Below are positions 49,892-64,000 of a stretch of DNA of 64,000 nt, in pieces. Below the pieces are notes generated by a model. The model ran no database searches and was not told where the DNA came from. It saw only the letters and a list, made by a program, of their open reading frames with translations. This stretch comes from an uncultured Succinivibrionaceae bacterium. Its GTDB lineage: Bacteria > Pseudomonadota > Gammaproteobacteria > Enterobacterales > Succinivibrionaceae. The position numbers and the translations under genes were made by a program. The stretch is taken from contig CALXOV010000055.1 in assembly GCA_944390105.1 (NCBI GenBank), positions 2,930-66,929 on the forward strand. The letters run 5' to 3'. How positions within the stretch are numbered: the first letter of the stretch is position 1; each line of letters starts with the position of its first letter.

Positions 49892-50223
49892 GTTGTCACC
49901 TTTTCCTATCTCAATGCAGTGTCTGCGGCCAACATCAAAACCGTATGCTCCGTCAGCGCAGCTTGTGGCCGCATTACCGCAGCAGGGCTTTGAGGCAAAT
50001 TTCCGCCTGCATTTTCATCAATATGCTCAGGCATTATAGCGCTCTGCCAAATTGTTATTTGTATTGCACTATTAAGGTGAAGACAAAATTCAAACACGCA
50101 CCAAAATAGCGCTTATTTAGTAGATATCATGCAACAACAGATAGTTAAAATGTATCAAAAAAGAAACTTACTTTAATAGTCTAATTTTCATCGGATTGAT
50201 TACAGATTTGCAAGACGATAATT

Positions 50224-53076
50224 CTACTCGCCATCATCCCCATTCAACTCACTATCAGATTTAGATTTTTTATCGCTATCTTCGCCAGCCAATTCACGAA
50301 TTGCTTCAAGTCCTTTAATAGACCCTTCACCCTCAAAATATTCTTTTAATCTATCCCTAACTGCAACTAAATTATTATGATAGCTTACGAGGTTTGATTC
50401 CATACATCTCATAGGATCGGTGTATTTGACGGCTTCATCCATAATATTCATACATTCATTATAATACAGAATACCCTCATGACTAATATTATCACCTTTT
50501 ACATAAAGAAAGTCAGGCTCCTGAGCACGATATTTAAGCGCTTCTAGAATTAAATAAGCCGCATTGTAGAATGATTTTTTAAAATTTTTTGTTTTATATT
50601 CATTTTTCATTAAATTAATGCCACACTTAATCATCAATAGTGCTATTTTTCTGTCAATAATATGCTTGCTACTAGGATAGTTATCCAGCATTTTTCCCAA
50701 TGCCAACGCATGGGTTCCCTTAAATAAAATCATATTTTTACAAAAAGTTTTATAAAATAAATCAAATAACCTTTTCAGCGCATCATCAGAAGAAAAAACA
50801 CTAGCCGCATAATTCCAAATTAAAGTTTTTTTGGGATCCTGTTCTAGGATATCCAAAATAATTTTCTTAAACTTTTCAGTTAAATTTCCACGCAAATAAG
50901 CAGCACATCTAGGTATAGCCTGATTTACAACATAACGTTTTGTATCGTAATCTAAGCGATCTATGATATCTAAAAATTTTTCTAATATTGCTATATACTC
51001 ATTAATGAATGTATCATATTCATTTTTATATTCTTCAACATTGATGGAACCATATTGGTCAAGTAAGAAACAATATTTTTCACTATTATCAATATTTTTA
51101 ACCTTATCATATGCATTAAAAAATTTAGAATTTGGTAATTTATTTAAGATCTTTCTAGTTAAAACTAACCCCTTAACTCTACGAGGTTGATAAAGACAAA
51201 CTTCTACCTCATTTAGTAAAGTTTTATATTTTTTAATAAAATCTTTCATTGTTAAAATAGCAGACCAACATTTTCTAAATTTAACATAGTCTTTGTCATA
51301 ACTTCCGATTGTAAATGGCTCACATTTTAAATCTGGAGGATAAGATAACCCTCTCCTAAATCTATCCATAATCTCTTGAAGAGTAATATTACTCATGGAG
51401 TTAAAATCGAAACATTGACCTTCTTTTAGTCTACGATCAATTTTGGAAGAAATATCAGCAGCAGCAAATTTAATAATTGCATAGCCCGAAGCCGCAGACA
51501 TCTGCACTGTAGTAACTAGCTTTACCTTGGTTTTACTTATAGTATTGAAAGGCACATAACCAGCTCTTAACTGATTTGTAGTACTGCCTTTATTAAATTT
51601 TCCTTTGGCAATAAATACCTCAAAGTTGGATACATTTTCCGGCAGATAGAAAGTTATGTCGGTAATTTCGGATGAATAGATCTTACCTGCTGGATATCCA
51701 TTCTTTAAAATACTCGGCTTTAGCAGAGATATCGGTTTTGGTTCATTTTGCCCTTTTTCGATTGCAAAAATCGACAGCTCATCTAATTTATCATTATATG
51801 ATGGTAATCCCCTGGCCACGCGCTGGGCAAATAATGCCGTTCCATCAGCAATATCATCTTTATTGGTATACCACACTCCTCTATGTGCATAATTATCCCC
51901 GAGATAGTTCATAAAAAGGCCATTAGCCAGTTCTCTCGCAATAAATTCACTGCTAAGAGGTCCAGTTACAATTAATGAAGCTAACTTTTCATTGCTGATA
52001 TTGTGCATAACAAAAGCAACAACAGCATCTAACCACGCTTTTTTATCATAAATACTGACATCTGTATTTGTTATATTATACTTTTGATTTTTTAAATCGA
52101 TTAATAAACTATTAATATCTACTTTATTATCTTCAACTATGTTATTATTTAAGTTGTTAAAATGCAAATTTTCCACTTTAACCCAGCGTTTATTCAAATA
52201 GAAAATATAATTCTTTTCTTCTGTTGGTAATTTCAATAAACTTGGCCAAATCTGATCACATAAATTTAAAATTTGACTTTTCTCAGTGGCATTATACTTA
52301 TAATTAGGAAGACTTTTATTAAGTCTATCAATAAATAATTCAAACAAGCTCATCCCATCAAAAGGAAATCTTTCGCGTTCCTCATCAGGAAAATCTCTAA
52401 TTGGCACATAGAATGTTTTATTATTTTCAAGAGTAGGAGATACGGCAAAACTTGAAAATTCAACGCAATCTAGACCTAAATATAAAACTCCAAGCTCTTT
52501 ATTGCTTCCTTCAGTAAATTGCTGAGCATAATAATCCTGATGGGCTGGACGCCGCAACCAATCCATTGCCGCGGCCACTGTTCGCCAAACTAATCTAACG
52601 TCTTTAAGACCAAGTATTCTCTTCAGATCCTGCAACAGATGCTCTCTTGCATTCATATTGATGAAATTAGGCACGGCTACAGCTACGTGTGAATCACTTC
52701 CTAATCTTGTTGGGAACAGCGCTTTAATATGCTCTGCCATCAACTGTGAGCAGTTTATTCCATCCCACTTGTGAACTATATCTATATCTTCCATCAGCTT
52801 TTCCCAGATTAAGCTGATAAGCGCACGTTTGCCGCTAAAGGAATCCAAAGTTTTGAGCGGGTAAGAAGGTGGGAATGGAAAACCTAAGCCGGTTCGATCT
52901 CTCTTAGCACTGAAGCCAGTAGTGGGCAAGGTATAAGCATCATCGCTTAAGATCACGCAGGATGGCTGAAAATCATTACTGCGGTCCAAGGTAAATTCAG
53001 GTACATTATCTTCAATTGTGCTGAAAGAATCCCGCAAGCCGAAAGCTGCCACACCTATATACTTAGAATTACCCAT
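50224..53076 (-). CDS. divergent Hsp70-like protein (actin-fold NBD plus beta-sandwich) with a C-terminal alpha-helical extension of about 400 aa
   Basis: VAVAVPNFINMNAREHLLQDLKRILGLKDVRLVWRTVAAAMDWL (aa 131-174) parallels Hsp70 AVITVPAYFNDxQRQATKDAGxIAGLxVLRIINEPTAAALAYG. LIVTGPLSS resembles LVGGSTRIP, and DDIADGTALFAQRVARG resembles NPDEAVAxGAAxQA. Residues aa 430-545 read like an SBD-beta domain. The start overlaps the upstream gene's stop by 8 nt. Confidence 0.6.
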   Translation of the reverse strand: MGNSKYIGVAAFGLRDSFSTIEDNVPEFTLDRSNDFQPSCVILSDDAYTLPTTGFSAKRDRTGLGFPFPPSYPLKTLDSFSGKRALISLIWEKLMEDIDIVHKWDGINCSQLMAEHIKALFPTRLGSDSHVAVAVPNFINMNAREHLLQDLKRILGLKDVRLVWRTVAAAMDWLRRPAHQDYYAQQFTEGSNKELGVLYLGLDCVEFSSFAVSPTLENNKTFYVPIRDFPDEERERFPFDGMSLFELFIDRLNKSLPNYKYNATEKSQILNLCDQIWPSLLKLPTEEKNYIFYLNKRWVKVENLHFNNLNNNIVEDNKVDINSLLIDLKNQKYNITNTDVSIYDKKAWLDAVVAFVMHNISNEKLASLIVTGPLSSEFIARELANGLFMNYLGDNYAHRGVWYTNKDDIADGTALFAQRVARGLPSYNDKLDELSIFAIEKGQNEPKPISLLKPSILKNGYPAGKIYSSEITDITFYLPENVSNFEVFIAKGKFNKGSTTNQLRAGYVPFNTISKTKVKLVTTVQMSAASGYAIIKFAAADISSKIDRRLKEGQCFDFNSMSNITLQEIMDRFRRGLSYPPDLKCEPFTIGSYDKDYVKFRKCWSAILTMKDFIKKYKTLLNEVEVCLYQPRRVKGLVLTRKILNKLPNSKFFNAYDKVKNIDNSEKYCFLLDQYGSINVEEYKNEYDTFINEYIAILEKFLDIIDRLDYDTKRYVVNQAIPRCAAYLRGNLTEKFKKIILDILEQDPKKTLIWNYAASVFSSDDALKRLFDLFYKTFCKNMILFKGTHALALGKMLDNYPSSKHIIDRKIALLMIKCGINLMKNEYKTKNFKKSFYNAAYLILEALKYRAQEPDFLYVKGDNISHEGILYYNECMNIMDEAVKYTDPMRCMESNLVSYHNNLVAVRDRLKEYFEGEGSIKGLEAIRELAGEDSDKKSKSDSELNGDDGE

Positions 53077-54736
53077 TCTGCACCACCCGATTTAGTAAGC
53101 TTGTTACAGCCATCTGCACTTGTTCAGATACATTTCTCCATTGGCCTATCTGCATGGGTACGTGACACAGCAATGCATGTTCTTTTTCCTCATTAAACGC
53201 AGATGGGGTAACTTTTAGTTCATAATTAAAAGTTAAACTTAATAAATGCCATTCCTGCAACTCCAAAAGCTCATAATCATTAATACATGACTCTGAGCTT
53301 TTGAGGATTTGTGACGCAACCTCAGCATTGTCCTCATGCGTGCTTAATGCATTATTCAATGAATACAACAATATTAAATAAGGCTTATCATCCTCATTCA
53401 ACGGTGTACACAGAATACATGACTTTGTTCCTAATATAGATGCGGTTTGCGCAGCCGTATTGTAAAGATCATCTTGCCGCGACGTTATAGGGATGCTGTT
53501 GACATCCGAAATAAAATCAATGACATATTCTCGTCCAGAGCTACCGCATAAATAAAATGAACCTGGCGGCAATGAATGATCTAGTAATACCCCCTGTCTA
53601 TTTTCCTTTCTTATCTTTAAATTAGACGTTGCAATCAGTTCCAAGGTGAAATTAGGATTTGATGAATTTTCATTTGGTAATACATACAGAGCGGATGCCA
53701 TCAGCAGACATGATAGATCGGAGGAAGTTATATACAGCCAATGCAACAGATTATCGACCCTTCTATTATGTCTCAGCAAGTCCTGATAATACTGCCATAC
53801 TTTTCTATACCTTAAATCATTCTGTAGCACATAATTAGGAACTATAGCCGCAGCAGGCCGGCGCACATATGTAAATTCAGCTCTATGCAAGCCATCAATA
53901 CATTGTTGCTCAAAGTGTTTGACTAAATCTTCATTAGAAGATTTATGGTTTTCTTTGAGAAAATTAGTGCAGGCTAAGATACATCTGCGCAAAAAATCTT
54001 TTAATACTTGATTTTCAAGCAGATCATAATTTTCAGTTCGCACTACCGCCAAAATCTTACTATCGTTAGCTGCAGCTTTCTGGAAAATACTCTTGCCTGG
54101 CTGCTTGACCAACCAGCGCAGGCTGTTCACATTAACTTCATTGACTTTATCTAATTTCTGTAATCTATCTTCACGTTTTAAAGTCTTTCTTATACCGCTC
54201 AGCACTAATGGTAGAAATTTTGTAAATTCATTACTAATCGTGACTATAAGGGGCTTATAGATCTCTTCATCTTCTTGAACCATTTTCACTATTATTTCCG
54301 GCAAATCATCATAGCGGAACAGTTCATGCTCAAATTTAACATTAACATTATTCGGATCTGATTTGTACGCAAGATAATCAAAAAATCCTATCCAGCTTTT
54401 TAGACATTCTTTAAGTTCTTCACTAAAATTTTGATCTCCCAAGTAGTGAAAATTCTTAAACCTTATCTTAGCCCATTCAATGCATAGATTATTTTCAATG
54501 CTACTATTATGCTCTGAATAAGGCATTGCCACCAACATATACCAGCGGTGATTTTTATAATATTTCCTTCCTATGCAGGAATATTCTGTAAGTAAGTTAA
54601 GTTGATTTAAATCATCTTGAGGAACTTCAAGTAATACACTTCCTAAGAAAGAGTAATCTTGCACAGCACCATTAATTGACCTGCTAGATTTAAATTCCCA
54701 TTCCCAAGGATAAGTTTTTACTATTATTTCATGCAT
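53069..54736 (-). CDS. McrC/DUF2357-like partner protein of the McrB-like NTPase
   Basis: Sits immediately downstream (3-nt gap) of the McrB-like gene. RTENYDLLENQVLKDFLRRC (aa 233-252) resembles the (S/T)xDxxENRxxKxFL motif of DUF2357/McrC-like proteins. I could not find a D...(D/E)xK motif by eye. Confidence 0.5.
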   Translation of the reverse strand: MHEIIVKTYPWEWEFKSSRSINGAVQDYSFLGSVLLEVPQDDLNQLNLLTEYSCIGRKYYKNHRWYMLVAMPYSEHNSSIENNLCIEWAKIRFKNFHYLGDQNFSEELKECLKSWIGFFDYLAYKSDPNNVNVKFEHELFRYDDLPEIIVKMVQEDEEIYKPLIVTISNEFTKFLPLVLSGIRKTLKREDRLQKLDKVNEVNVNSLRWLVKQPGKSIFQKAAANDSKILAVVRTENYDLLENQVLKDFLRRCILACTNFLKENHKSSNEDLVKHFEQQCIDGLHRAEFTYVRRPAAAIVPNYVLQNDLRYRKVWQYYQDLLRHNRRVDNLLHWLYITSSDLSCLLMASALYVLPNENSSNPNFTLELIATSNLKIRKENRQGVLLDHSLPPGSFYLCGSSGREYVIDFISDVNSIPITSRQDDLYNTAAQTASILGTKSCILCTPLNEDDKPYLILLYSLNNALSTHEDNAEVASQILKSSESCINDYELLELQEWHLLSLTFNYELKVTPSAFNEEKEHALLCHVPMQIGQWRNVSEQVQMAVTSLLNRVVQNG

Positions 54737-54739
54737 ATA

Positions 54740-56968
54740 TTACTCGTCAGCTCTATATAAGCCTACCCAATTGAAAATTCCTGTTTCCTGAGAGCTTATA
54801 TCAATTGACTGACTGATGGATTCAGCTAACTTAGCGTCACTAAGCTTAGTCGCTACAAACTCTTTTAAGGCATTGAGCTCATTGCGTTTGCTGTTAACAT
54901 CGACACCTCTCAATTTAGGCAGGATCTTATGTTCAATTTGATCTGACATGGCATATTTCAAACTGGTTTGAATGTTCACTCCATCGTGGGGATAATTCAT
55001 AATATAATCCCGTATGGAATTATCCACACGCAAACCAAAAGGCCGGCCTAAATCTTTCATGAGTTTGGATAATTCAACTATCCAATTATTGACATTGACC
55101 TTATCTTGGTTATTATCAAAGGATTTTTTAATCCATTTGCACCATGTTTCATAATTGATAAAATATTTATTTTCATTATCTGAAGCAATTTGAGTCTCAT
55201 TGTCCACTTTATTGGGTCTACCGAATCTAATAACATCTGAGCGATCCAGCACTTTATCTGCTAAGGTCTGCGTTGTCTCATCTTCATTCATAGTACCAAC
55301 AAAAAGAATATTTTTCGGTACCCAGAGCTTAAGATCATTCTGCACATTTAATGATATTTCAGCTTGAGATATTTCCTCATCAGTAATATTCTTTACATTT
55401 CGCCTAAATTCTAATTTAGATAAAAACTCCGAGAAATAATATTCAGTTCGTGCCAAATTCATTTCATCTAATAAAACTAATAGCATTGGTGAATTATCGC
55501 TCAAGTCTTTAATAACATCATTGTTATCAAAGTATCGTATGTTTTTATTATTTAACTTGTTTTTTCTCCTAAATACATAATCATAGGCATTTAAGCTCTT
55601 AGCTAAATCGGTTGCTTGATATTTTCCAGTTAAGTAATTATAGAACCCTAATAAATCCTGTGGAGAATCCCAACGCGGCTGAACTGAAATAATTAGATTA
55701 TTCATGCCGAAGTATTTTGCATACTGGGTAGGCAGCAACGACTTACCAGTACCTGACAGTCCAGCTAAAACTGTCAAAGGACTTATATCTTGAATCTTCA
55801 GACTGGTATGAAAAGATTTGATCAGTCTTTGGCTGAAAATTAATTTATTGTTTTTTAAATAATCGTAAAAATTATCTAAAGCTTGTAATTCATTTTCCGG
55901 CTTACGATTATTTGTTTTTTGCGTGAAAGATAAACATGAAGGAATGCGATATAAGTCAGCGAAAGCATCAGTTTCCTTGTTAAGCTTAAGCTTATCATTC
56001 TCATCGTGCAGCCGCTGATTTTCTTTCTTAAGTTGATTTTGATCAAAACATCCTTGAATATATTTCTGAATAAGATATGCCGTATCCCGGATGTTGTTGC
56101 TAAGCTGTTCGTTGAGCACATGCATAACTGCTTTATGCTGCGCATCAAGATCCTTTTTCAGACTGCTATCTAAGACCTCTGCTTGATTAAGTAGCGCCTT
56201 CCCTAAGGCTTGACCGTGAGATTTAAAGACGTTATCAAAAGATTGGGCTAATGCATTACCTTGGTTTTTAAAGACTTCATCAAAAGATTGGGCCAATGAT
56301 CTGCCCTGATCCGTCATCGCCTGTTTAAAACCGTCTGCCAGCGAATTTTCATCAAAGCTGAAATTATCCTTGTTAAACGCTTCAGTTAAGATACTCTGCA
56401 AGTTTGAGGCAATTTCTTTATCCACATGCAACAAGCTTTGCTCTGCGCGCAAATCCTCAATTTTCTGTTCTAGTTCAGCTAACTCTGCCTGCTGCTGCTT
56501 TATCAGCGCGCGCTTTTCCTCATATTCATTCAGCTCCCGCTTAATGCGTTCATATTCAGCGCTTTTATCCTTTAATTCGCTTAATTCGCGCTCTTTAGTT
56601 TCAATCTTTAATTTTAGGTCCGTCAAACGTTCTGTATATTGCCTTTCAAGCTGTTCTAAGTTATTTCTTAATTGATCAAGATCTTTGTCTTGCTGCACAG
56701 CTTCAGCATAATTCTGTTTAAGGCGAATTAGCTCTTCATGAATTTGATCCTTTTTAGTCTGCATTACTTGGACTTGGTTGCGCAGATCCGTTAGCTTTTT
56801 GGCATTAAGATCCATAGCATCTGCAAATTTCTTTGAATGCAAAAAGATACTAGGAATTTTGTTATAGTTTGAAATAGTCACCATCGCATAGATTAATACA
56901 ATGATGGCAACAATAAGCCCGACCAATGGCAAGTACAGCCAAAAATTTCCCGCAAAGCTTAAATCCAT
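54740..56968 (-). CDS. membrane-anchored coiled-coil protein fused to a McrB-like AAA+ (AAA_5) NTPase
   Basis: TM helix FWLYLPLVGLIVAIIVLIYAMVTI (aa 9-32), then heptad-rich E/K/Q/L sequence at about aa 55-335. Walker A GLSGTGKS (aa 403-410, nt 55739-55762) and Walker B LLVLLDEMNLARTEYYFSEFLSKLE. FVGTMNEDETTQTLADKVLDRSDVIRF corresponds to the McrB MNTADRS...RRF region. Confidence 0.75.
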   Translation of the reverse strand: MDLSFAGNFWLYLPLVGLIVAIIVLIYAMVTISNYNKIPSIFLHSKKFADAMDLNAKKLTDLRNQVQVMQTKKDQIHEELIRLKQNYAEAVQQDKDLDQLRNNLEQLERQYTERLTDLKLKIETKERELSELKDKSAEYERIKRELNEYEEKRALIKQQQAELAELEQKIEDLRAEQSLLHVDKEIASNLQSILTEAFNKDNFSFDENSLADGFKQAMTDQGRSLAQSFDEVFKNQGNALAQSFDNVFKSHGQALGKALLNQAEVLDSSLKKDLDAQHKAVMHVLNEQLSNNIRDTAYLIQKYIQGCFDQNQLKKENQRLHDENDKLKLNKETDAFADLYRIPSCLSFTQKTNNRKPENELQALDNFYDYLKNNKLIFSQRLIKSFHTSLKIQDISPLTVLAGLSGTGKSLLPTQYAKYFGMNNLIISVQPRWDSPQDLLGFYNYLTGKYQATDLAKSLNAYDYVFRRKNKLNNKNIRYFDNNDVIKDLSDNSPMLLVLLDEMNLARTEYYFSEFLSKLEFRRNVKNITDEEISQAEISLNVQNDLKLWVPKNILFVGTMNEDETTQTLADKVLDRSDVIRFGRPNKVDNETQIASDNENKYFINYETWCKWIKKSFDNNQDKVNVNNWIVELSKLMKDLGRPFGLRVDNSIRDYIMNYPHDGVNIQTSLKYAMSDQIEHKILPKLRGVDVNSKRNELNALKEFVATKLSDAKLAESISQSIDISSQETGIFNWVGLYRADE
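56222..56311 (-). repeat. imperfect 45-nt tandem duplication inside the coiled-coil region (15-aa units LAQSFDEVFKNQGNA / LAQSFDNVFKSHGQA)
   Basis: Units at 56222-56266 and 56267-56311 both begin TTTAAAGAC..ATCAAAAGATTGGG on the plus strand. Confidence 0.8.
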
Positions 56969-57035
56969 CTTTAATCCCTTTTATATCAAAGTTAACTCTA
57001 AATTCTGCCGATAAATTTATTAGTAAACTGAAGAA

Positions 57036-58574
57036 CTAGTCTTCAGCCTCCAGTTGGTCTAATGTCTTCACATACTGCTGAGCAGTACTCTTAAAATGAT
57101 CTAATTGCGTAGCATCAAGTCCTGCATTGGTACTCAGATTTGCAATATCATCTTCACTCATTGCATCGAACTGCTTTATGGTTGCGTCTAATGCTTGCGT
57201 ATTAGCACGCAGCTGCTCAGCTGTATTGATGCTTATCTGAAGCGCTACGGCTGCAGACACCTTCTGCTGTGACTCAGCTAGACTTGCGATAATTGCATTC
57301 AGCTGCGTATTTTGCTGATTAAAAGCATCAGTAGCTCGTTGCAGTTGCTGTGTATATGGATCTAAGTTAGTTTTATTGTTTATCTCAGTAACTGCACTTT
57401 GATAATTTGCTGCAGTTTTTACAACTTGTTCACGTAAGATGACAAGTTCATCCAGCATAGAGCTTAGAGTTACCTGTTTCTCTTGACTATTGCTTGGCGC
57501 ATTGTGCCTATCGTTAGTTCCTACCAACTGGTTCAAGTTAGTAATCGCCGTGCTGATATTTTCTGCAGATGAAGCCAGCTTGCTATTAGTTCCAGTAAAA
57601 TCCACTTGCTGCAGTTGTTCATTTTTAGCTTGCAGAGCCTTAATCTCTGCTGTTAAGCTGTCATGTAACTGTGTGTATGATCTGTATTCACTGCTGTAAT
57701 TATTCAACACAGTATCTAATGTATTCTTTTGTCCTGCAATATCATTCACTTTTTTATTAAATTGCTCTGAAGCAACGCGGATATTCTTAGCATAATGCGC
57801 AATAGAGTTCGGTTCATTCTCATCTAGCTGATCATTTAACTTATCATTTACGGTCATGTAGTCATTGATAATGCCACTGATTCTAGTCTGCATATCAGAT
57901 AACGATTTTGTCAGCACATTTATCGAACTGTCCTCTTGTTTAAGTGCTGCAAACCGCTTTTCCAGGGAAGTTAACTCTATTTCAGTTGCTTCTTTTTTAC
58001 TCAACAATCCATTTACTTCATCGGTTAAACTTGATGCTGTCCGTTTAAGCGTAGTTTGCTCATTTCTTAAGGACGTTATTTCTTTATTCAACGTCTGCTT
58101 ATCAGCCTGTAGGGAAGCTAGCTCATTTGTTAATTTAACCTTACTGGCATTAAGCTCTCCGACTTCTGCCTTCAAGTCTTCATAACGAGCCAATACAGCT
58201 ACAGCTTCATCGTAAGCTTGTTTTTTAGCGTCATACTCTGCGGCGATTGACTTAAGCTCAGCACGATTCTTTTCCAGCCCAAAAGAAATTTCATTAAATT
58301 CTTGGCGCATCCCGGGCAGTTCGGAAATGTAGTGCTGATAGTCGGCCAGATCCTGCTCTAGCTGCTGCTTTTCTTCGATGAAAGTATTGCGCTGCCATAA
58401 CTCGATGGCAAAGCAACAGATACAGAAAATCGTCACCGCCGAAATACCGCAAATTAAGCCGATAAAACGGGATTTGGGCATTTTTTTATCAATAGATAAA
58501 TCATAAAATGCATCGTTATCTTCCATGTGCGATAAATCAGCAGAGTCAGACTGTGCATTAAAATCCGATTTCAT
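57036..58574 (-). CDS. membrane-anchored long coiled-coil protein (512 aa) with no enzymatic motif
   Basis: TM helix FIGLICGISAVTIFCICCFAIELW (aa 37-60). The rest is Q/L/N/E/A/T-rich heptad-like sequence. The start overlaps the helicase stop by 17 nt and is preceded by GAGGGA. Confidence 0.6.
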   Translation of the reverse strand: MKSDFNAQSDSADLSHMEDNDAFYDLSIDKKMPKSRFIGLICGISAVTIFCICCFAIELWQRNTFIEEKQQLEQDLADYQHYISELPGMRQEFNEISFGLEKNRAELKSIAAEYDAKKQAYDEAVAVLARYEDLKAEVGELNASKVKLTNELASLQADKQTLNKEITSLRNEQTTLKRTASSLTDEVNGLLSKKEATEIELTSLEKRFAALKQEDSSINVLTKSLSDMQTRISGIINDYMTVNDKLNDQLDENEPNSIAHYAKNIRVASEQFNKKVNDIAGQKNTLDTVLNNYSSEYRSYTQLHDSLTAEIKALQAKNEQLQQVDFTGTNSKLASSAENISTAITNLNQLVGTNDRHNAPSNSQEKQVTLSSMLDELVILREQVVKTAANYQSAVTEINNKTNLDPYTQQLQRATDAFNQQNTQLNAIIASLAESQQKVSAAVALQISINTAEQLRANTQALDATIKQFDAMSEDDIANLSTNAGLDATQLDHFKSTAQQYVKTLDQLEAED

Positions 58575-61500
58575 CGTGGTCCCTCATCATTTGCTGCCAT
58601 TTATCTAAAACCTGCTGAGCACATTGCGCAGGTTCGGCATAAACCTTTCTTCCCCAAAAACGTAATACTTCATAGTGCAGCGCGCCCATCTGCAGATCAC
58701 GCAGGTAATCATCAGCCTTCCGCTGTCCCATGGCATCTACATGACAGTTGCCGTCCACTTCAACATCCAAAAAGAGTTTACGTTCTTCATCAATAAAGGC
58801 AAAATCCAAGCGGCGATTAATCGCGGGCAGCGGATATTGAACCTTAGGTTTTGGCAGTGGCAATTTTTTAAGATGCCACAGCATCAAACGTTCAAGCGGA
58901 GATTCGGTAAGAGCCATGTCATCATCATCATCAAGACTGCCCTCGGCCCCACCGACAGCCGGCAAAGTGCGGATAAATTCAGCATCAGACATTAGTGCAG
59001 CCTCAGTATTGCCAACGACGCACACCAGTGAACGTGCTCGAGAAACTGCAACATTCAGAATATTTTTATTGCCGCTGATAAAGGCGTTTCCGAAACGCGA
59101 GGTCAAGCACAAACTCAGGATCACAATATCCCATTCAGAGCCCTGTGCTTGATGCACTGACTGAATAGTTAAATCCCCAAGTCCTTGCTGGACAGACTCG
59201 TCTCCGGCAGTCTGCAAATGAACTGCCAATAGGCTGTCAGCTGCAACTGCTTGTCTAATCCTGTCCACTTGAAGTTTATACGGAGACAAGATTCCTACAG
59301 TGCCCCCAAAGTCTGCATCTGCATAAATTGTGTGCAGCAGTTCAAGCACTGCCTTAATCTCAGCTGCATTGCTACGTGAGGAATTAGTACTGCTTTTTTC
59401 GGTCTGATCTGCTGTCTCATACCACTTTATGCCGTATTCCATATGCTTCGGCAACGGCAGATCAGCTTCGCTGCAGCGTGAAATGAGCATCCCGTCATAA
59501 CACAAGTCTGAAATATACTGCGTAATGCGGTTGCAGGAGCGATATGACTGGATTAATGACAATTTTTCCGCTCCCGGCGTCAAATAAGCAAAAGCGTAGA
59601 GTGATTTAATATCCTGCCCTAATTCAGGAAATGCATTGCACAGCCACAGTCTACTTTCAACCGCGTTCATCTCTAAGCCGTTGTTGCGCATGATTGAATC
59701 CTGCTTAGATACGCTGACGGCATTAACGATCGGCCCTAATTGATTTGGGTCACCGATAACAGCCGCCGCTTTAGCGCGATACAGCAAAGGAATGGCAGCC
59801 ACAAAATCAAACTGCGAGCTTTCATCAAAAATAACCAAATCAAACATGCCGGCTATTAAGGGAAATAAGCTGCGGGCAGAAGCTGTTGTGCATAGCCATA
59901 TCGGCTTATGCTGCAGAATTTGTTTAACCTTGTGGCTAAGGTGAGTGCAAAAGTCAGCGTCAGTCAGTAATTTGTCATTAAAATCATCTTTTTGCTTAGC
60001 ATCGCTATAAGCGTATTGCTTTAATTCGTTCAGATAATTTTGCCAATCCTTGGCATTATCGCATACATGCTCTGATGACCACACACAGTAGCGGATGGCT
60101 CGTTCATAGGCATCATGTAGCTTTTTTTGTTGCACTGCAAAATCTGCTTCTAGCTGCTCAATATCAGCATCGGCAGATAAAGTTCTGAGCTGCTCGGCAC
60201 AGAGGTTTTTGCGCAAGCTAAGAAGCAGATAATCATTTATTATCTTAAAGTTGCTGCTGTGCTTAACTAAGGCGTCAGTCAAAACTGATCCACCACTTAT
60301 CCGTAAGCGCAGCTTGGTCATAAAGGCGGTGATGCGATTTTTAAGGTTGAAAAAACTGCGTTCATCCTGACATCTACAGTACTGCGCAAAATATTGCATG
60401 CATTGTTGCAGATGATCGCTGCTAAACTTAGTAAGTTGTGGCTCAAGCTGTGTAAACACTGTTGCCAAATGCTTAAAACTGTTTTTCATCGTGTCACGGC
60501 AGCTGTCGTAATGCGCTATCTCAGTTTTAAGATTTTCTACGACATCTTTACGCTTTAAATGCTCCTGCAACTGTGTACGGAGCTGATTAAACTTGGCGAT
60601 GTCATTAAATGAAGCGTCTGTTGTCTCTGTCCTTTTACTTAACCCCATGGCCACAGAGTACAACGTGGCATCAGTGCCTTCTTTGCTGTTGGCCCGTATC
60701 GTTAGGTCTGTGGCATGCTCAATTTTCTGCAGCCTTTCAATCAGTGCATTAATAGCCTGATGGTTATATGAGGTAATTAACACGCTCTTACCCTGGGCAG
60801 CGGCATTTAAAGCCGCTGCCGCAATGACCTGCGTCTTACCGGTACCTGGTGGCCCCTGTAGCACGGTGATCCTATTGTCTAAGATCGATGCCACCGCAAG
60901 TTGCTGCTCAAAATTAAACGGCAGCTTATCTCTATCCGTACAAACAAGTTCAGGGTAGATACCCACAGCTGGTGCTGAATTATAGAGAAAAAGCGGCAAA
61001 ACCGAGTTTTTTAACTGCTGGCTTTGTGCGCGACTTATATTCTTTAAATCATGCTGAATGGATTTTAAAAAGGGATTTTCCCTAAATTCACCTAGCAGTG
61101 CGACGTTATAAATTCCATCATGGCGCAGACTGTTGAGTGAACTTAAGTTATAAATATTCAGTGGTTGCTGCGGCTGAAAATAGGTCTCGACCAACACCTT
61201 AAAGCATGACCAGCTATCAGCTTTAAGGAAATTGCTCATTGGATCAGCCTCTTCTGAAATAAGGCTGTCTACGCATACTTTGTATCTGCGCTTAAACTCC
61301 TCTGCAGCATGATCTTTATTGGCAAATTTAAGCTTAAACCAACTTTCATTGATTTTCGGAATTAAGTCTTCTTCAAAACTATTAAGTTTAATGCTGTTAG
61401 ACAGTATTGAAGCGTCGTATATGCGTACGTAAAAAATCGGGACAATCCGCTCATCAACAACATCTACCGGATACCCGAGGGTCATTGTTTTCCTGCCAAA

Positions 61501-62082
61501 ATCAAATTGTTGGCAATCACTGCCTGCCATAACGCTATCACTTACCGAAGTAAGTTGCATTGAACTGCCATAGGTATGCTTATTCCACCGCGGCAGTTCG
61601 TCGATGTTGATGAAGGTTAGACCCTGATCTGATTTTTTATATTCCTGAGTTACCGATCCTTCACAGTTTTTTAAATCAATATAAGCGTTGATCAGTTGTT
61701 TAAATGAACTTTCATCAAGCTTCTGTTCAAACAGCTCATCCTCACTTAAAAACTGCTTTAAGAAATCCTTATCATTTACATTGGCCGAGATTAACTCCCG
61801 CCATGAGTAATGGCGCCGCGGCGAAGTGACGACATAAAAACAACCGGAAGGAGTTATTGTACGGAGTTTGTCCTGTCGAATTAAAAGATAAAATGCGGTA
61901 TGCGCCTGAATATAACTTAAATGAGCTTGAGTGCGTAAAATAGCAATGATGCTGGACTTATCCATCACCTGAGAGCGCGTCTGCATTACTTTCCATGCGC
62001 GCTGATAAATTTGAGAACTCGATAATGGAACTATATCATATTCATTATCACTGTCCTCGGAATAGGATAACGCATCTAGCAT
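58558..62082 (-). CDS. SF1 (Upf1/DNA2-like) helicase fused to a C-terminal Vsr/DUF559-like endonuclease domain, with an N-terminal region of about 390 aa of unknown function
   Basis: Motif I GPPGTGKT (aa 410-417, nt 60832-60855), motif II FDLVIFDESSQ (DESSQ at nt 59812-59826), QSYRS, VHQAQGSEWDIV and NVAVSRARS. C-terminal SPLERLMLWHL...RLDFAFIDEERKLFLDVEVDGNCH...DDYLRDLQMGALHYEVLRFW (aa 1060-1160, nt 58603-58905) matches the DUF559/Vsr-fold pattern. Confidence 0.8.
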   Translation of the reverse strand: MLDALSYSEDSDNEYDIVPLSSSQIYQRAWKVMQTRSQVMDKSSIIAILRTQAHLSYIQAHTAFYLLIRQDKLRTITPSGCFYVVTSPRRHYSWRELISANVNDKDFLKQFLSEDELFEQKLDESSFKQLINAYIDLKNCEGSVTQEYKKSDQGLTFINIDELPRWNKHTYGSSMQLTSVSDSVMAGSDCQQFDFGRKTMTLGYPVDVVDERIVPIFYVRIYDASILSNSIKLNSFEEDLIPKINESWFKLKFANKDHAAEEFKRRYKVCVDSLISEEADPMSNFLKADSWSCFKVLVETYFQPQQPLNIYNLSSLNSLRHDGIYNVALLGEFRENPFLKSIQHDLKNISRAQSQQLKNSVLPLFLYNSAPAVGIYPELVCTDRDKLPFNFEQQLAVASILDNRITVLQGPPGTGKTQVIAAAALNAAAQGKSVLITSYNHQAINALIERLQKIEHATDLTIRANSKEGTDATLYSVAMGLSKRTETTDASFNDIAKFNQLRTQLQEHLKRKDVVENLKTEIAHYDSCRDTMKNSFKHLATVFTQLEPQLTKFSSDHLQQCMQYFAQYCRCQDERSFFNLKNRITAFMTKLRLRISGGSVLTDALVKHSSNFKIINDYLLLSLRKNLCAEQLRTLSADADIEQLEADFAVQQKKLHDAYERAIRYCVWSSEHVCDNAKDWQNYLNELKQYAYSDAKQKDDFNDKLLTDADFCTHLSHKVKQILQHKPIWLCTTASARSLFPLIAGMFDLVIFDESSQFDFVAAIPLLYRAKAAAVIGDPNQLGPIVNAVSVSKQDSIMRNNGLEMNAVESRLWLCNAFPELGQDIKSLYAFAYLTPGAEKLSLIQSYRSCNRITQYISDLCYDGMLISRCSEADLPLPKHMEYGIKWYETADQTEKSSTNSSRSNAAEIKAVLELLHTIYADADFGGTVGILSPYKLQVDRIRQAVAADSLLAVHLQTAGDESVQQGLGDLTIQSVHQAQGSEWDIVILSLCLTSRFGNAFISGNKNILNVAVSRARSLVCVVGNTEAALMSDAEFIRTLPAVGGAEGSLDDDDDMALTESPLERLMLWHLKKLPLPKPKVQYPLPAINRRLDFAFIDEERKLFLDVEVDGNCHVDAMGQRKADDYLRDLQMGALHYEVLRFWGRKVYAEPAQCAQQVLDKWQQMMRDHDEIGF

Positions 62083-62143
62083 ATCATCATTATAATCGTG
62101 TGAATTTTTTCAAAGTTATTTTAAAAAGCAATTATATGTATAA

Positions 62144-62185
62144 ATTATAGCACCAGTAGCTTTTACAAAATAGCTATAATTTACC
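62144..62185 (-). promoter_or_regulatory. candidate extended -10 promoter for the island operon
   Basis: The minus strand reads GGTGcTATAAT (TATAAT at 62144-62149, TG at 62151-62152), about 60 nt upstream of the helicase ATG. The -35 element is poor. Confidence 0.3.
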
Positions 62186-62331
62186 CTCCAAAATTATACG
62201 TATATCTTTTATCCGACACTGCAATACCGCTCCCGCTCACTGCACTCAGCTCCTATATCGGCTCTACTGCGCTGCAGCAATCTGCTACCTACTAATTTAA
62301 GCTTAGAATGCTTAGTAGCGGGATTTTGCGG

Positions 62332-63360
62332 CTAATTGTTGACTGCTTTCACCTGCGCCAAAGCATCCACTCTATCTTCATAATACGGGCACAGCACCGC
62401 ATGCGCTACCTGCAGGCGCTCTAAAAGTTCCTGTGCACTGTGTTGCTGCCGGTATGCCGCCTCTAACGGATAAAGCGGCAGCACCTGAAAGATATTCACT
62501 CGAAAACCATCTGGCAACTGATAACTCTGAGCCGCACGTGGATAGTCGCCTAAGGCCGTAAGCATCAGCGCACTGGCGCGCACCGCCGGCACCAAGGGCG
62601 CACCGTTATCAACGGTATAGCCAAAACCGACGAAATGATCACTAAGGCGTATCTGCGCAGTTAAATCCAAAAGAAACTTAAACGGGTAATAGTAAGCAAG
62701 CTCACTTCTATCCACGGGCCAAGCCTTAGGCAAAGCAAGAGCCAGCTCAAGACAGGAATTTTCCTTAGCATCAGCACCGGGCGGCACCGCTTGGCGCAAT
62801 GCAGACAGCCCCTTGGTTACTACTAAGTAATAATCGTGACCATCCTGCGGGGCAAAAACGATAAGCTCAACCTTATCGCCTTTAAGCGTGGCATGCACCT
62901 TACCAAAATGCTGCGACGCATGCGCATCAAAGGCGGCACTTTCTGCCGCATTAAGCGATCGCACCGCCGCAGCTTTATAGATAAGTTGCAGCTGTGCTTC
63001 AATACGCGCGAAAAGCTCGGGCTGAGTAAGCGGAACAAAACGCCGCGCCCGCTCAAGGCGCAACAGCGCATCCTGCAGCAGATTTTCTTTAATTAAAGTC
63101 AGTGCCTTAAGATACAGATACTGCGCGTCATTGCCTCCCTCATCTTCAAAAGTATTGAGAATATCTTCGGCGCGGCGCAGGCAGAAATCGTCTTGCTTTT
63201 GATTATGCAAATTTAAATACGCGCGCACTAAATACAGTGCTAAAGTCAAATCAATACTATCTTGTGCCTCAAGCATATCTACCGCCTGTTGATAAGCACT
63301 TTTTACTAAAAGTTCATCAAGCTTGGTGCACAGCGCGGTTTTTTCATCATTGGTTAACAT
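62332..63360 (-). CDS. SUFU-like (suppressor-of-fused domain) protein with an N-terminal helical/TPR-like region
   Basis: The C-terminal half (YYLVVTKGLSAL...CLELALALPKAWP...YYYPFKFLLDL) resembles bacterial SUFU-domain (PF05076) proteins. Start chosen at ATG 63358-63360 (MLTNDEK...), preceded by AAGGGAAAG. The ORF-track start is 63417. Confidence 0.55.
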   Translation of the reverse strand: MLTNDEKTALCTKLDELLVKSAYQQAVDMLEAQDSIDLTLALYLVRAYLNLHNQKQDDFCLRRAEDILNTFEDEGGNDAQYLYLKALTLIKENLLQDALLRLERARRFVPLTQPELFARIEAQLQLIYKAAAVRSLNAAESAAFDAHASQHFGKVHATLKGDKVELIVFAPQDGHDYYLVVTKGLSALRQAVPPGADAKENSCLELALALPKAWPVDRSELAYYYPFKFLLDLTAQIRLSDHFVGFGYTVDNGAPLVPAVRASALMLTALGDYPRAAQSYQLPDGFRVNIFQVLPLYPLEAAYRQQHSAQELLERLQVAHAVLCPYYEDRVDALAQVKAVNN

Positions 63361-63497
63361 GAAATGCTTTCCCTTAATCTCAGGCTTCACTAAATACGGC
63401 AAAGCTCTAAGCGACATCTGCCATGACTACAGTTCAGGCAGCACGCTTAGAGCTCAGCTTCCCCGCACCAGTTTAGGTGCAGGCCTTTAGGCTAATG

Positions 63498-64000
63498 TTA
63501 CAGATGCAGTGCGTGCTCACCGCGGGCAATGCCGCACACTCCTGAGCGCACAGTTTCGATTACATCCGCCTGTTTAGCGATCACCTCTAAAAAGCGCATA
63601 ATCTCAGCTGACGTATTAACGTACTGCAACACGTACAACTCCGGAGTTACATCCACAATCTGCGCTTTAAAGATATCGCACAGACTCTTGAGCTCATCAC
63701 GCACCGCACGGCTCATTGCCTGTACTTTGACAAACAAGATCTCGCGCTCCACCGCCCCTTCGGGGTTTTCATCTAAAATCGACACCTTAATCACATTGAT
63801 AAGCTTGTGGATCTGCTTGGAGATATGTTCAATTTCCACCCCCTCAGATTCGGTCACAATTGTGATGCGCGAAATGGACGGATCTTCAGTAGGGCCTGCC
63901 GAAATGGTTTCGATATTATAGCCGCGCTGCGAGAACAAACCTACCACGCGGGAGAGCGCACCGTTCTGATTTTCAAGCAGAATTGAAATGATATGACGCA
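63498..64000 (-). CDS. ilvH: second acetolactate synthase small-subunit paralog (the first base of the start codon lies just beyond the window end)
   Basis: Reading the frame back to the window edge gives (M)RHIISILLENQNGALSRVVGLFSQRGYNIETIS.... The GTG start in the ORF track is internal. By eye, roughly half the residues are identical to the ilvH at 47663-48163. Confidence 0.85.
   Translation of the reverse strand, partial: RHIISILLENQNGALSRVVGLFSQRGYNIETISAGPTEDPSISRITIVTESEGVEIEHISKQIHKLINVIKVSILDENPEGAVEREILFVKVQAMSRAVRDELKSLCDIFKAQIVDVTPELYVLQYVNTSAEIMRFLEVIAKQADVIETVRSGVCGIARGEHALHL

What the first reader, a model, noticed from the sequence alone, without database searches (positions are those of the whole stretch)
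58558..62082. 1174-aa SF1 helicase with a Vsr/DUF559-like nuclease tail and a 390-aa unassigned N-terminal module leads the operon
The helicase core has a 330-aa insertion between motif I (aa 410) and motif II (aa 753) that is helical and Q/K/L-rich, possibly another coiled-coil or stalk element. The N-terminal 390 aa include a segment that reads like a winged helix (SIIAILRTQAHLSYIQAHTAFYLLIRQDKL) and a beta-rich stretch (FDFGRKTMTLGYPVDVVDERIVPIFYVRIYD). This could be a nucleic-acid-binding (OB-like) sensor domain. By line counts this gene also looks more GC-rich (several 60-nt lines at 35-50% G+C) than parts of the 950-aa gene, suggesting a mosaic origin.
Basis: partly seen in the sequence, partly recalled or inferred. 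Interest (0 to 1): 0.6.

Follow-up and report, generated by a model that had tools for sequence, protein, structure and literature searches.

The report
CnuH helicase-nuclease of a CoCoNuT system

Summary
The ORF at 58558..62082 (-) exists as described and heads a five-gene, translationally coupled operon. This operon is a 12-kb low-GC insertion in a chicken-gut Succinivibrionaceae-like genome.

Domain order from sequence and an AlphaFold2 model (pLDDT 85, pTM 0.80):
- winged helix, aa 22-84
- helices
- seven-strand beta domain, aa 157-236
- helices
- UPF1-like SF1 helicase, motif I at 410 and motif II at 753
- helical insertion, aa 492-725
- DUF559/Vsr-like nuclease, aa 1054-1173

In the nuclease, D1093, E1108, D1110 and H1114 are invariant in 52 homologues.

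The N-terminal module and the insertion are standard for a family of at least 972 helicase-Vsr proteins. Related loci keep the same partners:
- a coiled-coil protein
- a coiled-coil McrB-like NTPase with the NxD motif
- a DUF2357 McrC-like protein
- a large fifth protein

This matches Type III-B CoCoNuT (Bell et al., eLife 2024), where this protein is CnuH.

The GC gradient along the operon is real. A mosaic origin is not supported: the closest related operon is 47-63% identical across all five genes. OB-fold status of the beta domain stays unproven.

Verdict: new member of a known kind, modest interest.

The parts
58558..62082 (-). cnuH, 1174 aa: wHTH, beta domain, UPF1-like SF1 helicase with helical insertion, Vsr/DUF559-like nuclease
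   Evidence: ORF. Pfam AAA_11, AAA_12 and DUF559. PDB sequence hits to SETX, UPF1, SMUBP-2, SEN1 and DNA2. AF2 pLDDT 85.3, pTM 0.80.
61831..62019 (-). Winged helix-turn-helix, aa 22-84
   Evidence: H22-34, H42-52, H57-69, E73-75, E81-84, pLDDT 81-96. Best fold matches are wHTH domains: GntR/BusR, ZBP1 and DLM-1 Zalpha (TMt 0.58-0.72), Sso10a. All have E>=0.0075.
61375..61614 (-). Beta-rich domain, aa 157-236, flanked by long helices (aa 124-141 and 246-301); candidate OB/1B-like barrel
   Evidence: Seven strands with a short helix after the third, pLDDT up to 97. LGYP...P(I/V)F motif nearly invariant in the family (G203, P205, P215). No significant PDB fold hit. One phage-labelled protein shares the module, E 7e-9.
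60613..60918 (-). RecA-like domain 1, first part, with motif I GPPGTGKT (aa 410-417)
   Evidence: Invariant G410-K416 in 52 homologues; motif positions.
59908..60609 (-). Helical insertion, aa 492-725, nine helices, the longest H492-535
   Evidence: AF2 secondary structure. Motif I to II is 337 aa here against a family median of 346, range 278-364. Sequence identity is only about 12%.
59593..59901 (-). RecA-like domain 1, second part, with motif II DESSQ (753) and motif III GDPNQL (777)
   Evidence: Invariant D753, E754, G777, D778, P779, Q781.
58993..59580 (-). RecA-like domain 2, with QGSEWD (980) and motif VI NVAVSRAR (1010)
   Evidence: Pfam AAA_12, 5.5e-29. Invariant Q980, G981, N1010, R1015.
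58564..58923 (-). Vsr/DUF559-like endonuclease domain, aa 1054-1173
   Evidence: DUF559 23.3 bits against cut-off 20.6. Profile against PDB 3HRL (DUF559 protein), E 6.2e-8. Invariant S1061, E1064, Q1082, D1093, E1108, D1110, H1114, D1125, R1128, R1141. Alpha-beta-beta-beta-alpha-beta order.
57036..58574 (-). cnuA, 512 aa: N-terminal hydrophobic segment plus long coiled coil
   Evidence: Only coiled-coil-type hits: SMC, Rad50, LmuB, JetC. Hydrophobic 19-mer at aa 37. Overlaps the cnuH stop by 17 nt.
54740..56968 (-). cnuB, 742 aa: hydrophobic segment, coiled coil, McrB-like NTPase with NxD motif
   Evidence: Walker A at 403, Walker B at 499, GTMNEDE at 558-564, conserved in 7 related loci. PADLOC PDC-M26A, 1e-36.
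53069..54736 (-). cnuC, 555 aa: McrC-like, DUF2357
   Evidence: Pfam DUF2357, 1e-9, 38.5 bits against cut-off 23.3.
50224..53076 (-). cnuD, 950 aa: fifth gene, no family hit here
   Evidence: No Pfam, NCBIfam or PADLOC hit. A protein of like size in the same position in relatives. Hsp70-like fold not tested by me.
62083..62331 (-). AT-rich (36% GC) upstream intergenic region, presumed promoter region of the operon
   Evidence: Sequence. Only weak consensus matches, no more than in shuffles.

Best explanation
The gene encodes CnuH, the helicase-nuclease subunit of a Type III-B CoCoNuT (coiled-coil nuclease tandem). This is a McrBC-derived anti-phage system acquired here as a 12-kb island.

Shown:
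- The protein is a UPF1-like SF1 helicase with all ATPase and helicase motifs intact.
- A large helical insertion follows motif I.
- The N-terminus carries a winged helix and a beta domain.
- A DUF559/Vsr-like endonuclease with intact conserved residues is fused to the C-terminus.
- It is encoded with CnuA (coiled coil), CnuB (coiled-coil NxD McrB-like NTPase), CnuC (DUF2357) and a fifth large protein, as in relatives from other phyla.

Inferred:
- The motor translocates 5'-3' on single-stranded nucleic acid, as UPF1-family helicases do.
- The wHTH and beta domain hold or select the substrate.
- The helical insertion docks CnuH onto the coiled coils of CnuA and CnuB.
- The Vsr-like domain cuts the strand being threaded.
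- The CnuB/CnuC/CnuD module senses infection and licenses the helicase-nuclease.

The target, DNA or RNA, is open. The Vsr-like fold favours DNA, while Bell et al. argue for RNA from the CnuD partner. I put DNA or both at about 55% and RNA only at about 35%.
For: Helicase:
- UPF1/SMUBP-2/SEN1/SETX/DNA2 by sequence.
- The same group by fold, E 8e-24 to 1e-14.
- Motif residues invariant in 52 homologues.

Structure:
- Full-length model pLDDT 85.3, pTM 0.80.
- N-terminal model pLDDT 81.4.

Nuclease tail:
- Above the Pfam DUF559 cut-off.
- 3HRL at E 6e-8.
- D1093, E1108, D1110 and H1114 invariant.

Family norm:
- N-terminal length 409 aa against median 409.5, and insertion 337 against 346.
- At least 972 relatives, many labelled very-short-patch-repair endonuclease.

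Same five-gene set elsewhere:
- P0024 contig and L086.
- L005 Shimia abyssi, L009 Pontiella, L011 and L020 Competibacteraceae, and L002.

Other:
- NxD(E) motif GTMN[ED]DE conserved in the CnuB proteins.
- The published Type III-B description matches point by point (PMC11090510).
- Island: 14.1 kb between the two acetolactate-synthase genes here against 1.8-3.3 kb in five same-genus genomes.
- Only 9 of 98 family genomes carry a relative.
- A Type II CoCoNuT protects Pseudomonas aeruginosa from RNA phages and one DNA phage (preprint 10.64898/2026.04.06.716636).
Against: - In the papers I searched, no Type III-B system or CnuH has been tested. Activity, polarity, substrate and defence role are all inferred.
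- The paper calls the N-terminal wHTH Sul7s-like and reports an OB fold. My fold searches gave only generic wHTH matches at E>=0.0075 and nothing significant for the beta domain.
- CnuB has no Pfam hit. Its McrB-like status rests on motifs, PADLOC PDC-M26A and its DUF2357 neighbour.
- I did not test CnuD as Hsp70-like.
- I could not compare with the paper's own Type III-B sequences, because the supplement is truncated in the held copy.
- The paper places Type III-B mainly in Alphaproteobacteria, whereas this host is gammaproteobacterial.
- The main text does not mention the N-terminal hydrophobic segments of CnuA and CnuB.
Confidence: 0.85

Rival explanations
1. It is a distinct, membrane-tethered variant rather than a plain Type III-B CoCoNuT. 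It might relate to the FtsB-like, transmembrane CoCoPALM branch of NxD McrB systems. In this reading CnuA and CnuB anchor the complex in the inner membrane and CnuH acts at the site of nucleic-acid entry.
For: - CnuA and CnuB each have an N-terminal 19-residue segment with mean Kyte-Doolittle hydropathy 2.2-3.2.
- That segment is conserved in L086, L002, L005, L009, L011 and L020.
- The paper's main text mentions transmembrane helices only for the CoCoPALM branch, not for Type III-B.
Against: - The hydrophobic segments also occur in the alphaproteobacterial operon (Shimia, L005). That group is where the paper places Type III-B, so they are probably an unremarked property of Type III-B rather than a mark of a separate kind.
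- No signal-peptidase or pilus genes lie in the operon.
- The helicase-Vsr fusion, the separate CnuA and the separate fifth gene are the published Type III-B signature.
Confidence: 0.07
2. It is a stand-alone helicase-nuclease for DNA repair or replication, in the manner of DNA2 or a Vsr-type mismatch nicking enzyme. Its place next to McrBC-like genes would then be incidental.
For: DNA2 is among the sequence and fold matches. Vsr and DUF559 proteins are DNA endonuclease-like. Many relatives are labelled 'very-short-patch-repair endonuclease'.
Against: - Overlapping reading frames with cnuA.
- The same partners accompany the helicase in seven or more distant loci.
- Patchy presence: 9 of 98 family genomes, with 39-43% identity even within the genus.
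- The gene lies in a low-GC island absent from five same-genus genomes.
- Housekeeping repair genes do not behave this way.
Confidence: 0.04
3. It is a Mokosh-type (MkoA/MkoC) or other already named helicase defence protein (Hhe, ProA, PLuB).
For: PADLOC MkoA at 2.9e-52, MkoC at 6.2e-46 and Hhe at 8e-9. NCBIfam PLuB, ProA and Hhe hits.
Against: - These matches cover only the shared helicase core (aa 392-1029).
- NCBIfam scores are far below their cut-offs: 96.7 against 999, 70.4 against 1500, 42.5 against 2000.
- There is no PLD nuclease domain and no MkoB-like partner.
- The tail is DUF559, not PLD.
Confidence: 0.03

Closest known systems
CnuH of Type III-B CoCoNuT systems (Bell, Sahakyan, Makarova, Wolf, Koonin, eLife 2024; PMC11090510)
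   Same: - UPF1-like SF1 helicase with a large helical insertion after Walker A.
- N-terminal wHTH, plus a beta domain that the paper calls an OB fold.
- Vsr-like nuclease fused directly to the C-terminus, with no separate CnuE.
- Operon partners: CnuA (coiled coil only), CnuB (coiled-coil NxD McrB-like NTPase), CnuC (DUF2357) and a separately encoded fifth protein.
- No TerY-P genes.
   Different: - The host is a gut gammaproteobacterium (Succinivibrionaceae-like), not the Alphaproteobacteria where the paper mainly finds Type III-B.
- The N-terminal sequence belongs to a rare sub-branch, with 7 phmmer hits among 1.8 billion representatives.
- CnuA and CnuB carry N-terminal hydrophobic segments that the paper's main text does not mention.
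- I could not confirm a specific likeness to Sul7s.
Eukaryotic UPF1-family RNA/DNA helicases (UPF1, IGHMBP2/SMUBP-2, Sen1/SETX, DNA2, Aquarius, ZNFX1)
   Same: Two RecA-like domains with SF1B motifs. Accessory elements lie before motif I (beta barrel on helical stalks) and after it (the 1C position). Fold match at E 8e-24 to 1e-14.
   Different: About 14% sequence identity. The insertion after motif I is about 230 residues of helices, far larger than 1C. It adds a wHTH and a C-terminal DUF559 nuclease. It belongs to a bacterial McrBC-type operon.
DUF559 / Vsr-like endonuclease fold (PF04480; PDB 3HRL; E. coli Vsr 1VSR/1CW0)
   Same: Full-length profile match to 3HRL (E 6e-8). The shared motifs are sE..E, (R)LDF, vExDG..H, D..R and RFW. 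Secondary-structure order is alpha-beta-beta-beta-alpha-beta.
   Different: It is a domain fused to a helicase, not a free-standing protein. The match to E. coli Vsr itself is not significant (E 0.4-1), so Vsr's own catalytic residues could not be mapped.
Type II CoCoNuT 'Obs' locus of Pseudomonas aeruginosa (preprint 10.64898/2026.04.06.716636)
   Same: A CoCoNuT with CnuH, CnuB and CnuC homologues. It is the only experimental evidence I found that a CoCoNuT defends, against RNA phages PP7 and LeviOr01 and DNA phage MPK7.
   Different: It is a seven-gene Type II system. Per Bell et al., Type II CoCoNuTs use a separate HEPN effector (CnuE). This locus has neither a fused Vsr nuclease nor a separate CnuA or CnuD.

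Membership tests
Type III-B CoCoNuT (CnuH and its operon) | [quoted passage not shown] | tested here: met
   PDB sequence hits to SETX, UPF1, SMUBP-2, SEN1 and DNA2. Foldseek top 40 hits are all UPF1-family. Motifs I, II, III and VI invariant.
Type III-B CoCoNuT (CnuH and its operon) | Large helical insertion following Walker A | tested here: met
   aa 492-725 all helical in the AF2 model. Length is conserved in the family: 337 against median 346. Formal coiled-coil prediction was not run.
Type III-B CoCoNuT (CnuH and its operon) | [quoted passage not shown] | tested here: met
   DUF559 and MTES_1575 hits at aa 1087-1160. 3HRL at E 6e-8. The operon holds only five genes and none is CnuE-like.
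Type III-B CoCoNuT (CnuH and its operon) | wHTH domain at the CnuH N-terminus (Sul7s-like in the paper) | tested here: inconclusive
   wHTH topology is clear at aa 22-84, and the best fold hits are wHTH proteins including Sso10a and Zalpha. No hit reached E<=0.001, and Sul7s was not among the 50 hits listed.
Type III-B CoCoNuT (CnuH and its operon) | OB-fold domain in CnuH (UPF1 1B-like) | tested here: inconclusive
   The beta domain at aa 157-236 has three strands, a short helix, then four strands, flanked by long helices before motif I. This fits an OB/1B barrel.
Type III-B CoCoNuT (CnuH and its operon) | Separate coiled-coil protein CnuA with no other recognisable domain | tested here: met
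   P0002 gives only coiled-coil-type matches. Its position after cnuH is conserved.
Type III-B CoCoNuT (CnuH and its operon) | CnuB: N-terminal coiled coil fused to a McrB-like GTPase with NxD instead of NxxD | tested here: met
   Walker A GLSGTGKS (403), Walker B LLDEMN (499), GTMNEDE with NxD followed by E. The motif is identical in 7 related loci. PADLOC PDC-M26A at 1e-36. Caveat: no Pfam hit and no GTPase phylogeny was made.
Type III-B CoCoNuT (CnuH and its operon) | CnuC: DUF2357 McrC N-terminal domain with an inactivated PD-(D/E)xK domain | tested here: inconclusive
DUF2357 scores above its cut-off.
Type III-B CoCoNuT (CnuH and its operon) | CnuD: Hsp70-like NBD/SBD plus HEAT-like repeats, encoded as a separate gene | not tested
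   A separate 950-aa fifth gene is present, and a gene of like size is conserved in that position. It has no family hit, and I spent no structure prediction on it. An earlier follow-up (e1-3022938) reports the Hsp70-like fold.
Type III-B CoCoNuT (CnuH and its operon) | No TerY-P triad (VWA, PP2C phosphatase, kinase) | tested here: met
   None among the five genes or the immediate flanks.
DUF559 / Vsr-like endonuclease (PF04480) | Score above the Pfam gathering threshold and similarity to a solved DUF559 structure | tested here: met
   23.3 bits against 20.6. 3HRL at E 0.008 with one sequence and 6.2e-8 with a 19-sequence profile.
DUF559 / Vsr-like endonuclease (PF04480) | Conserved acidic and His residues of the fold retained (D ... 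E-x-D-G-x-x-H) | tested here: met
   D1093, E1108, D1110 and H1114 are invariant in 52 homologues and aligned with vDF / vEaDGgqH of 3HRL. That they are catalytic is inferred.
DUF559 / Vsr-like endonuclease (PF04480) | Alignment with the catalytic residues of E. coli Vsr itself | tested here: inconclusive
   1CW0 and 1VSR matched only at E 0.4-1 over 33 positions, too weak to map residues.
Mokosh (MkoA/MkoB, MkoC) | PLD-family nuclease, fused or as a partner | tested here: not met
   No PLD domain in any of the five proteins. The MkoA and MkoC matches are confined to the helicase core, aa 392-1029.

The most novel reading that the evidence does not exclude
Type III-B CoCoNuTs may be membrane-tethered machines. 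CnuA and CnuB would be anchored in the inner membrane by the N-terminal hydrophobic segments that I found conserved from Alphaproteobacteria to Kiritimatiellota. CnuH would dock on their coiled coils through its 230-residue helical insertion. The helicase-Vsr nuclease would then meet incoming phage nucleic acid at the envelope. The published description does not mention this placement.
Probability: 0.2. Interest if true: 0.6.

Novelty: new member of a known kind. Interest (0 to 1): 0.3.

Why it matters
CoCoNuTs are a large, computationally defined branch of McrBC-type immunity. Only a Type II system has any experimental support that I found, and Type III-B has none. This locus is a compact, intact five-gene example with a high-confidence model of the helicase-nuclease, so it could serve as a test case.

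Questions it could address:
- Does CnuH act on DNA or RNA?
- Does the helical insertion couple it to the coiled-coil partners?
- Is the Vsr-like domain the effector?

As a discovery it adds little. It extends the host range of a known subtype to a gut gammaproteobacterium.

Tried and rejected
- E. coli genome search with the gene: no match.
- First genome-contig scan with the single protein: nothing. The second scan, with alignment A1, used generic P-loop and motif VI patterns. It returned mostly unrelated UPF1-like helicases, and only about ten loci were true helicase-Vsr relatives.
- Exact look-up of P0018 failed.
- The paper's Supplementary file 3 is truncated before the Type III-B sheet, so no direct comparison with published CnuH sequences was possible.
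- Cluster look-ups gave no names for host proteins. The host was instead placed through trigger-factor relatives.
- Fold search of aa 1-390 against PDB gave no hit at E<=0.001, so the OB claim could not be settled. Model coordinates are not exposed to scripts, so I could not cut out the beta domain.
- Zalpha-like reading of the wHTH: considered because ZBP1 and DLM-1 Zalpha and poxvirus E3-like proteins rank among the small-domain hits. By eye the Asn/Tyr of the Zalpha recognition helix are not conserved here, wHTH folds match promiscuously, and E-values are 0.02-0.15. Not adopted.
- Cholera-toxin B hits of the tail (E 0.05-1) are chance matches and were not pursued.
- Promoter and terminator scans gave no more sites than in shuffles.
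- Mosaic origin: rejected on the even identity profile to L086.


Full report
OBSERVATION

The ORF 58558..62082 on the minus strand is real: ATG start, 1174 aa. It is the first of five same-strand genes of 1174, 512, 742, 555 and 950 aa. The junctions are a 17-nt overlap, a 67-nt gap, a 3-nt gap and an 8-nt overlap, which indicates one translationally coupled operon.

- GPPGTGKT starts at aa 410 and DESSQ at aa 753.
- The two quoted peptides lie at aa 44-73 and 193-223.
- aa 1-390 have no Pfam match even at E<=10.
- The C-terminus hits DUF559 (23.3 bits against a cut-off of 20.6) and MTES_1575.
- The insertion is only mildly enriched in K and Q.

One database entry starts the protein at M33 (1142 aa). 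The closest relatives conserve residues 1-33: L086 begins MLD...LSSSKIYQRAWKVMQTR, and P0009 aligns from residue 20. The first helix, aa 22-34, is predicted with pLDDT 87. M1 is therefore the better start.

ANATOMY

An AlphaFold2 model built on a 52-sequence alignment is confident, with mean pLDDT 85.3 and pTM 0.80. A separate model of aa 1-390 agrees, with pLDDT 81.4. The domain order is:
- aa 1-20, disordered.
- aa 22-84, three helices plus a beta hairpin (winged helix).
- aa 94-141, helices.
- aa 157-236, a seven-strand beta domain with a short helix after the third strand.
- aa 246-301, helices.
- aa 389-490, first part of RecA-like domain 1, with motif I.
- aa 492-725, nine helices, the longest 44 residues.
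- aa 728-830, the rest of domain 1, with motifs II and III.
- aa 835-1030, RecA-like domain 2.
- aa 1054-1173, an alpha-beta-beta-beta-alpha-beta-alpha domain.

The N-terminus is folded, and the tail keeps its conserved residues.

HELICASE

By sequence the core matches SETX, UPF1, SMUBP-2, SEN1 and DNA2. By fold the top 40 PDB matches are all UPF1-family helicases, at E 8e-24 to 1e-14. Motif residues are invariant across the 52 homologues: G410-K416, D753, E754, G777-Q781, Q980, G981, N1010 and R1015. An active ATPase is therefore expected.

A beta domain on helices before motif I, and an insertion after it, mirror the 1B/stalk and 1C positions of UPF1. I infer this from the order of secondary-structure elements, not from a superposition.

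NUCLEASE TAIL

- A single-sequence search finds the DUF559 structure 3HRL at E 0.008.
- A 19-sequence profile of the tail finds 3HRL over its full length at E 6.2e-8.
- S1061, E1064, Q1082, D1093, E1108, D1110, H1114, D1125, R1128 and R1141 are invariant.
- They align with the sE..E, vDF, vEaDGgqH, D..R and RFW elements of 3HRL.
- E. coli Vsr itself matches only at E 0.4-1.

I therefore call the domain DUF559/Vsr-like with its conserved residues intact. I do not claim a residue-by-residue mapping to Vsr.

N-TERMINAL MODULE

As a sequence it is rare. An exhaustive phmmer search of 1.8 billion representatives found 7 proteins, and the indexed search found 2.

It aligns in register with the wider helicase-Vsr family. 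L130, Y134, G203, P205, P215, G323 and N326 are at least 90% conserved. Its length of 409 aa before the P-loop equals the family median of 409.5. It is the family's standard N-terminus in a diverged sub-branch.

Fold search of aa 1-390 against PDB gave no hit at E<=0.001. The best matches are winged-helix proteins: GntR/BusR, Sso10a, and ZBP1 and DLM-1 Zalpha with TMt 0.58-0.72 over 61-69 columns. Against viral models, one phage-labelled 'AAA domain protein' shares 244 columns at E 7e-9. The winged helix is supported. The OB assignment of the beta domain is plausible from its strand-helix order but unproven.

CONTEXT AND IDENTITY OF THE SYSTEM

The downstream genes are as follows.
- A protein with only coiled-coil-type matches.
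- A coiled-coil protein ending in a P-loop NTPase. It has Walker A at 403, Walker B at 499 and the signature GTMNEDE. This is the NxD-then-E variant of the McrB NxxD motif that defines the CoCoNuT branch. It also matches PADLOC PDC-M26A at 1e-36.
- A DUF2357 (McrC N-terminal) protein.
- A 950-aa protein with no family hit.

Bell et al. 2024 (PMC11090510) define Type III-B CoCoNuT by exactly this set:
- CnuH, a UPF1-like helicase with a large helical insertion after Walker A, an OB fold, an N-terminal wHTH, and a Vsr-like nuclease fused directly.
- A separate coiled-coil CnuA.
- CnuB and CnuC.
- A separately encoded Hsp70-like CnuD.
- No TerY-P.

The same five-gene set accompanies homologues elsewhere:
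- a JGI contig;
- the closest relative, L086;
- L002;
- Shimia abyssi (Alphaproteobacteria);
- Pontiella, where the helicase gene comes last;
- two Competibacteraceae.

The NxD(E) motif is identical in all seven CnuB homologues examined. The helicase-Vsr family has at least 972 members.

I could not compare with the paper's own sequences, because the supplement is truncated in the held copy. I also did not test CnuD's fold or CnuC's inactivation. Membership is therefore strongly supported by architecture, not by phylogeny.

ORIGIN

The genome is a chicken-gut assembly. Its trigger factor is closest to named Succinivibrio and Succinatimonas proteins at 47-48% identity. That points to a Succinivibrionaceae-like gammaproteobacterium, whereas the paper finds Type III-B mainly in Alphaproteobacteria.

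The operon is an island:
- The two acetolactate-synthase genes flanking it are 14.1 kb apart here and 1.8-3.3 kb apart in five same-genus genomes.
- Only 9 of 98 family genomes carry a relative.
- Same-genus copies are only 39-43% identical.

GC AND THE MOSAIC IDEA

The gradient is real. GC falls through 43.7, 40.1, 36.1, 36.2 and 33.7% from cnuH to cnuD, and GC3 falls from 43.8 to 27.5%, against a genome at 50.0%.

The closest related operon, L086, is collinear. It is 61, 47, 63, 59 and 59% identical across the five proteins, with uniform GC of 51-55%. Nothing there suggests that cnuH has a different ancestry from its partners. The gradient itself remains unexplained.

MECHANISM (inferred)

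- CnuH is the ATP-driven effector. As in other UPF1-family helicases, the motor should move 5'-3' on a single strand.
- The wHTH and beta domain should hold or select the substrate.
- The poorly conserved helical insertion (about 12% identity, conserved length) is the likely docking surface for the CnuA and CnuB coiled coils, as Bell et al. propose.
- The Vsr-like domain should cut the threaded strand.
- The CnuB/CnuC/CnuD module would sense infection and license the helicase-nuclease.

Whether the target is DNA or RNA is open. A Type II CoCoNuT protects against RNA phages and one DNA phage. I found no data for Type III-B.

RIVALS

- Mokosh, Hhe, ProA and PLuB hits cover only the helicase core and fall far below family cut-offs. 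There is no PLD domain.
- A housekeeping repair role conflicts with the island, the patchy distribution and the conserved partners.
- A distinct membrane-tethered variant is suggested by N-terminal hydrophobic segments in CnuA and CnuB. These also occur in the alphaproteobacterial operon, so they are more likely an unremarked property of Type III-B.

VERDICT

The object is a new member of a published, experimentally untested kind. Interest is modest.

Noticed in passing
window 57036-58574 and 54740-56968; L086, L002, L005, L009, L011, L020: CnuA and CnuB each start with a strongly hydrophobic 19-residue segment (mean Kyte-Doolittle 2.2-3.2). It is conserved in six related operons, including those of Shimia abyssi and Pontiella. 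The CoCoNuT paper's main text mentions transmembrane helices only for the CoCoPALM branch, not for Type III-B.
   Followed up: partly
window 50224-62082: GC falls steadily along the operon from cnuH to cnuD: 43.7, 40.1, 36.1, 36.2 and 33.7%, with GC3 falling from 43.8 to 27.5%. The closest related operon (L086) has uniform GC of 51-55%. The cause is unexplained.
   Followed up: partly
L086 244-3817: In the closest relative, cnuH is split into a 237-aa ORF and a 972-aa ORF that overlap at a run of G (…GGGG…). This is either a frameshift or an assembly error. The two pieces together match aa 1-1172 of the window protein at about 60% identity.
   Followed up: partly
L009 2378-13015 (Pontiella sp. 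MAG): The gene order is cnuA-cnuB-cnuC-cnuD-cnuH, so the helicase gene is last rather than first.
   Followed up: no
window 61984-62082: One database entry starts the protein at M33 (1142 aa). Conservation of aa 1-33 in L086 and P0009, and a confident helix at aa 22-34, favour M1.
   Followed up: yes
window 49892-63947; G014-G018: The two acetolactate-synthase large-subunit genes are 14.1 kb apart here and 1.8-3.3 kb apart in all five same-genus genomes. The 12-kb operon is therefore an insertion specific to this genome. No integrase or tRNA gene was noticed at its borders, though I did not search for them.
   Followed up: partly
G017:C62, G018:C205, G022:C186, G075:C59: Other genomes of the same genus and family carry their own helicase-Vsr genes at only 38-43% identity to this one. 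This suggests independent acquisitions or fast divergence.
   Followed up: no
window 61831-62019 (aa 22-84): Among the best small-domain structural matches of the winged helix are Zalpha domains (ZBP1 2LNB, DLM-1 1J75) and poxvirus E3-like dsRNA-binding proteins. E-values are weak (0.02-0.15), and by eye the Zalpha recognition residues do not look conserved.
   Followed up: partly
BFVD A0A8S5P0T8 (Myoviridae sp. ctakU3): A 440-aa phage-labelled 'AAA domain protein' shares the beta domain, stalk helices and helicase-start module of CnuH (E 7e-9, 244 columns, 18% identity). Relatives of this helicase may therefore sit on phage or prophage contigs.
   Followed up: no
L002 5947-9704: The related operon in L002 lies next to a cytosine DNA methyltransferase, a SinI-type restriction enzyme and a JetD_C/DUF3322 gene, a typical defence-island neighbourhood.
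   Followed up: no
window 62332-63417: A SUFU-domain protein (PF05076, 2.4e-21) with host-like GC (49%) lies directly upstream of the island.
   Followed up: no
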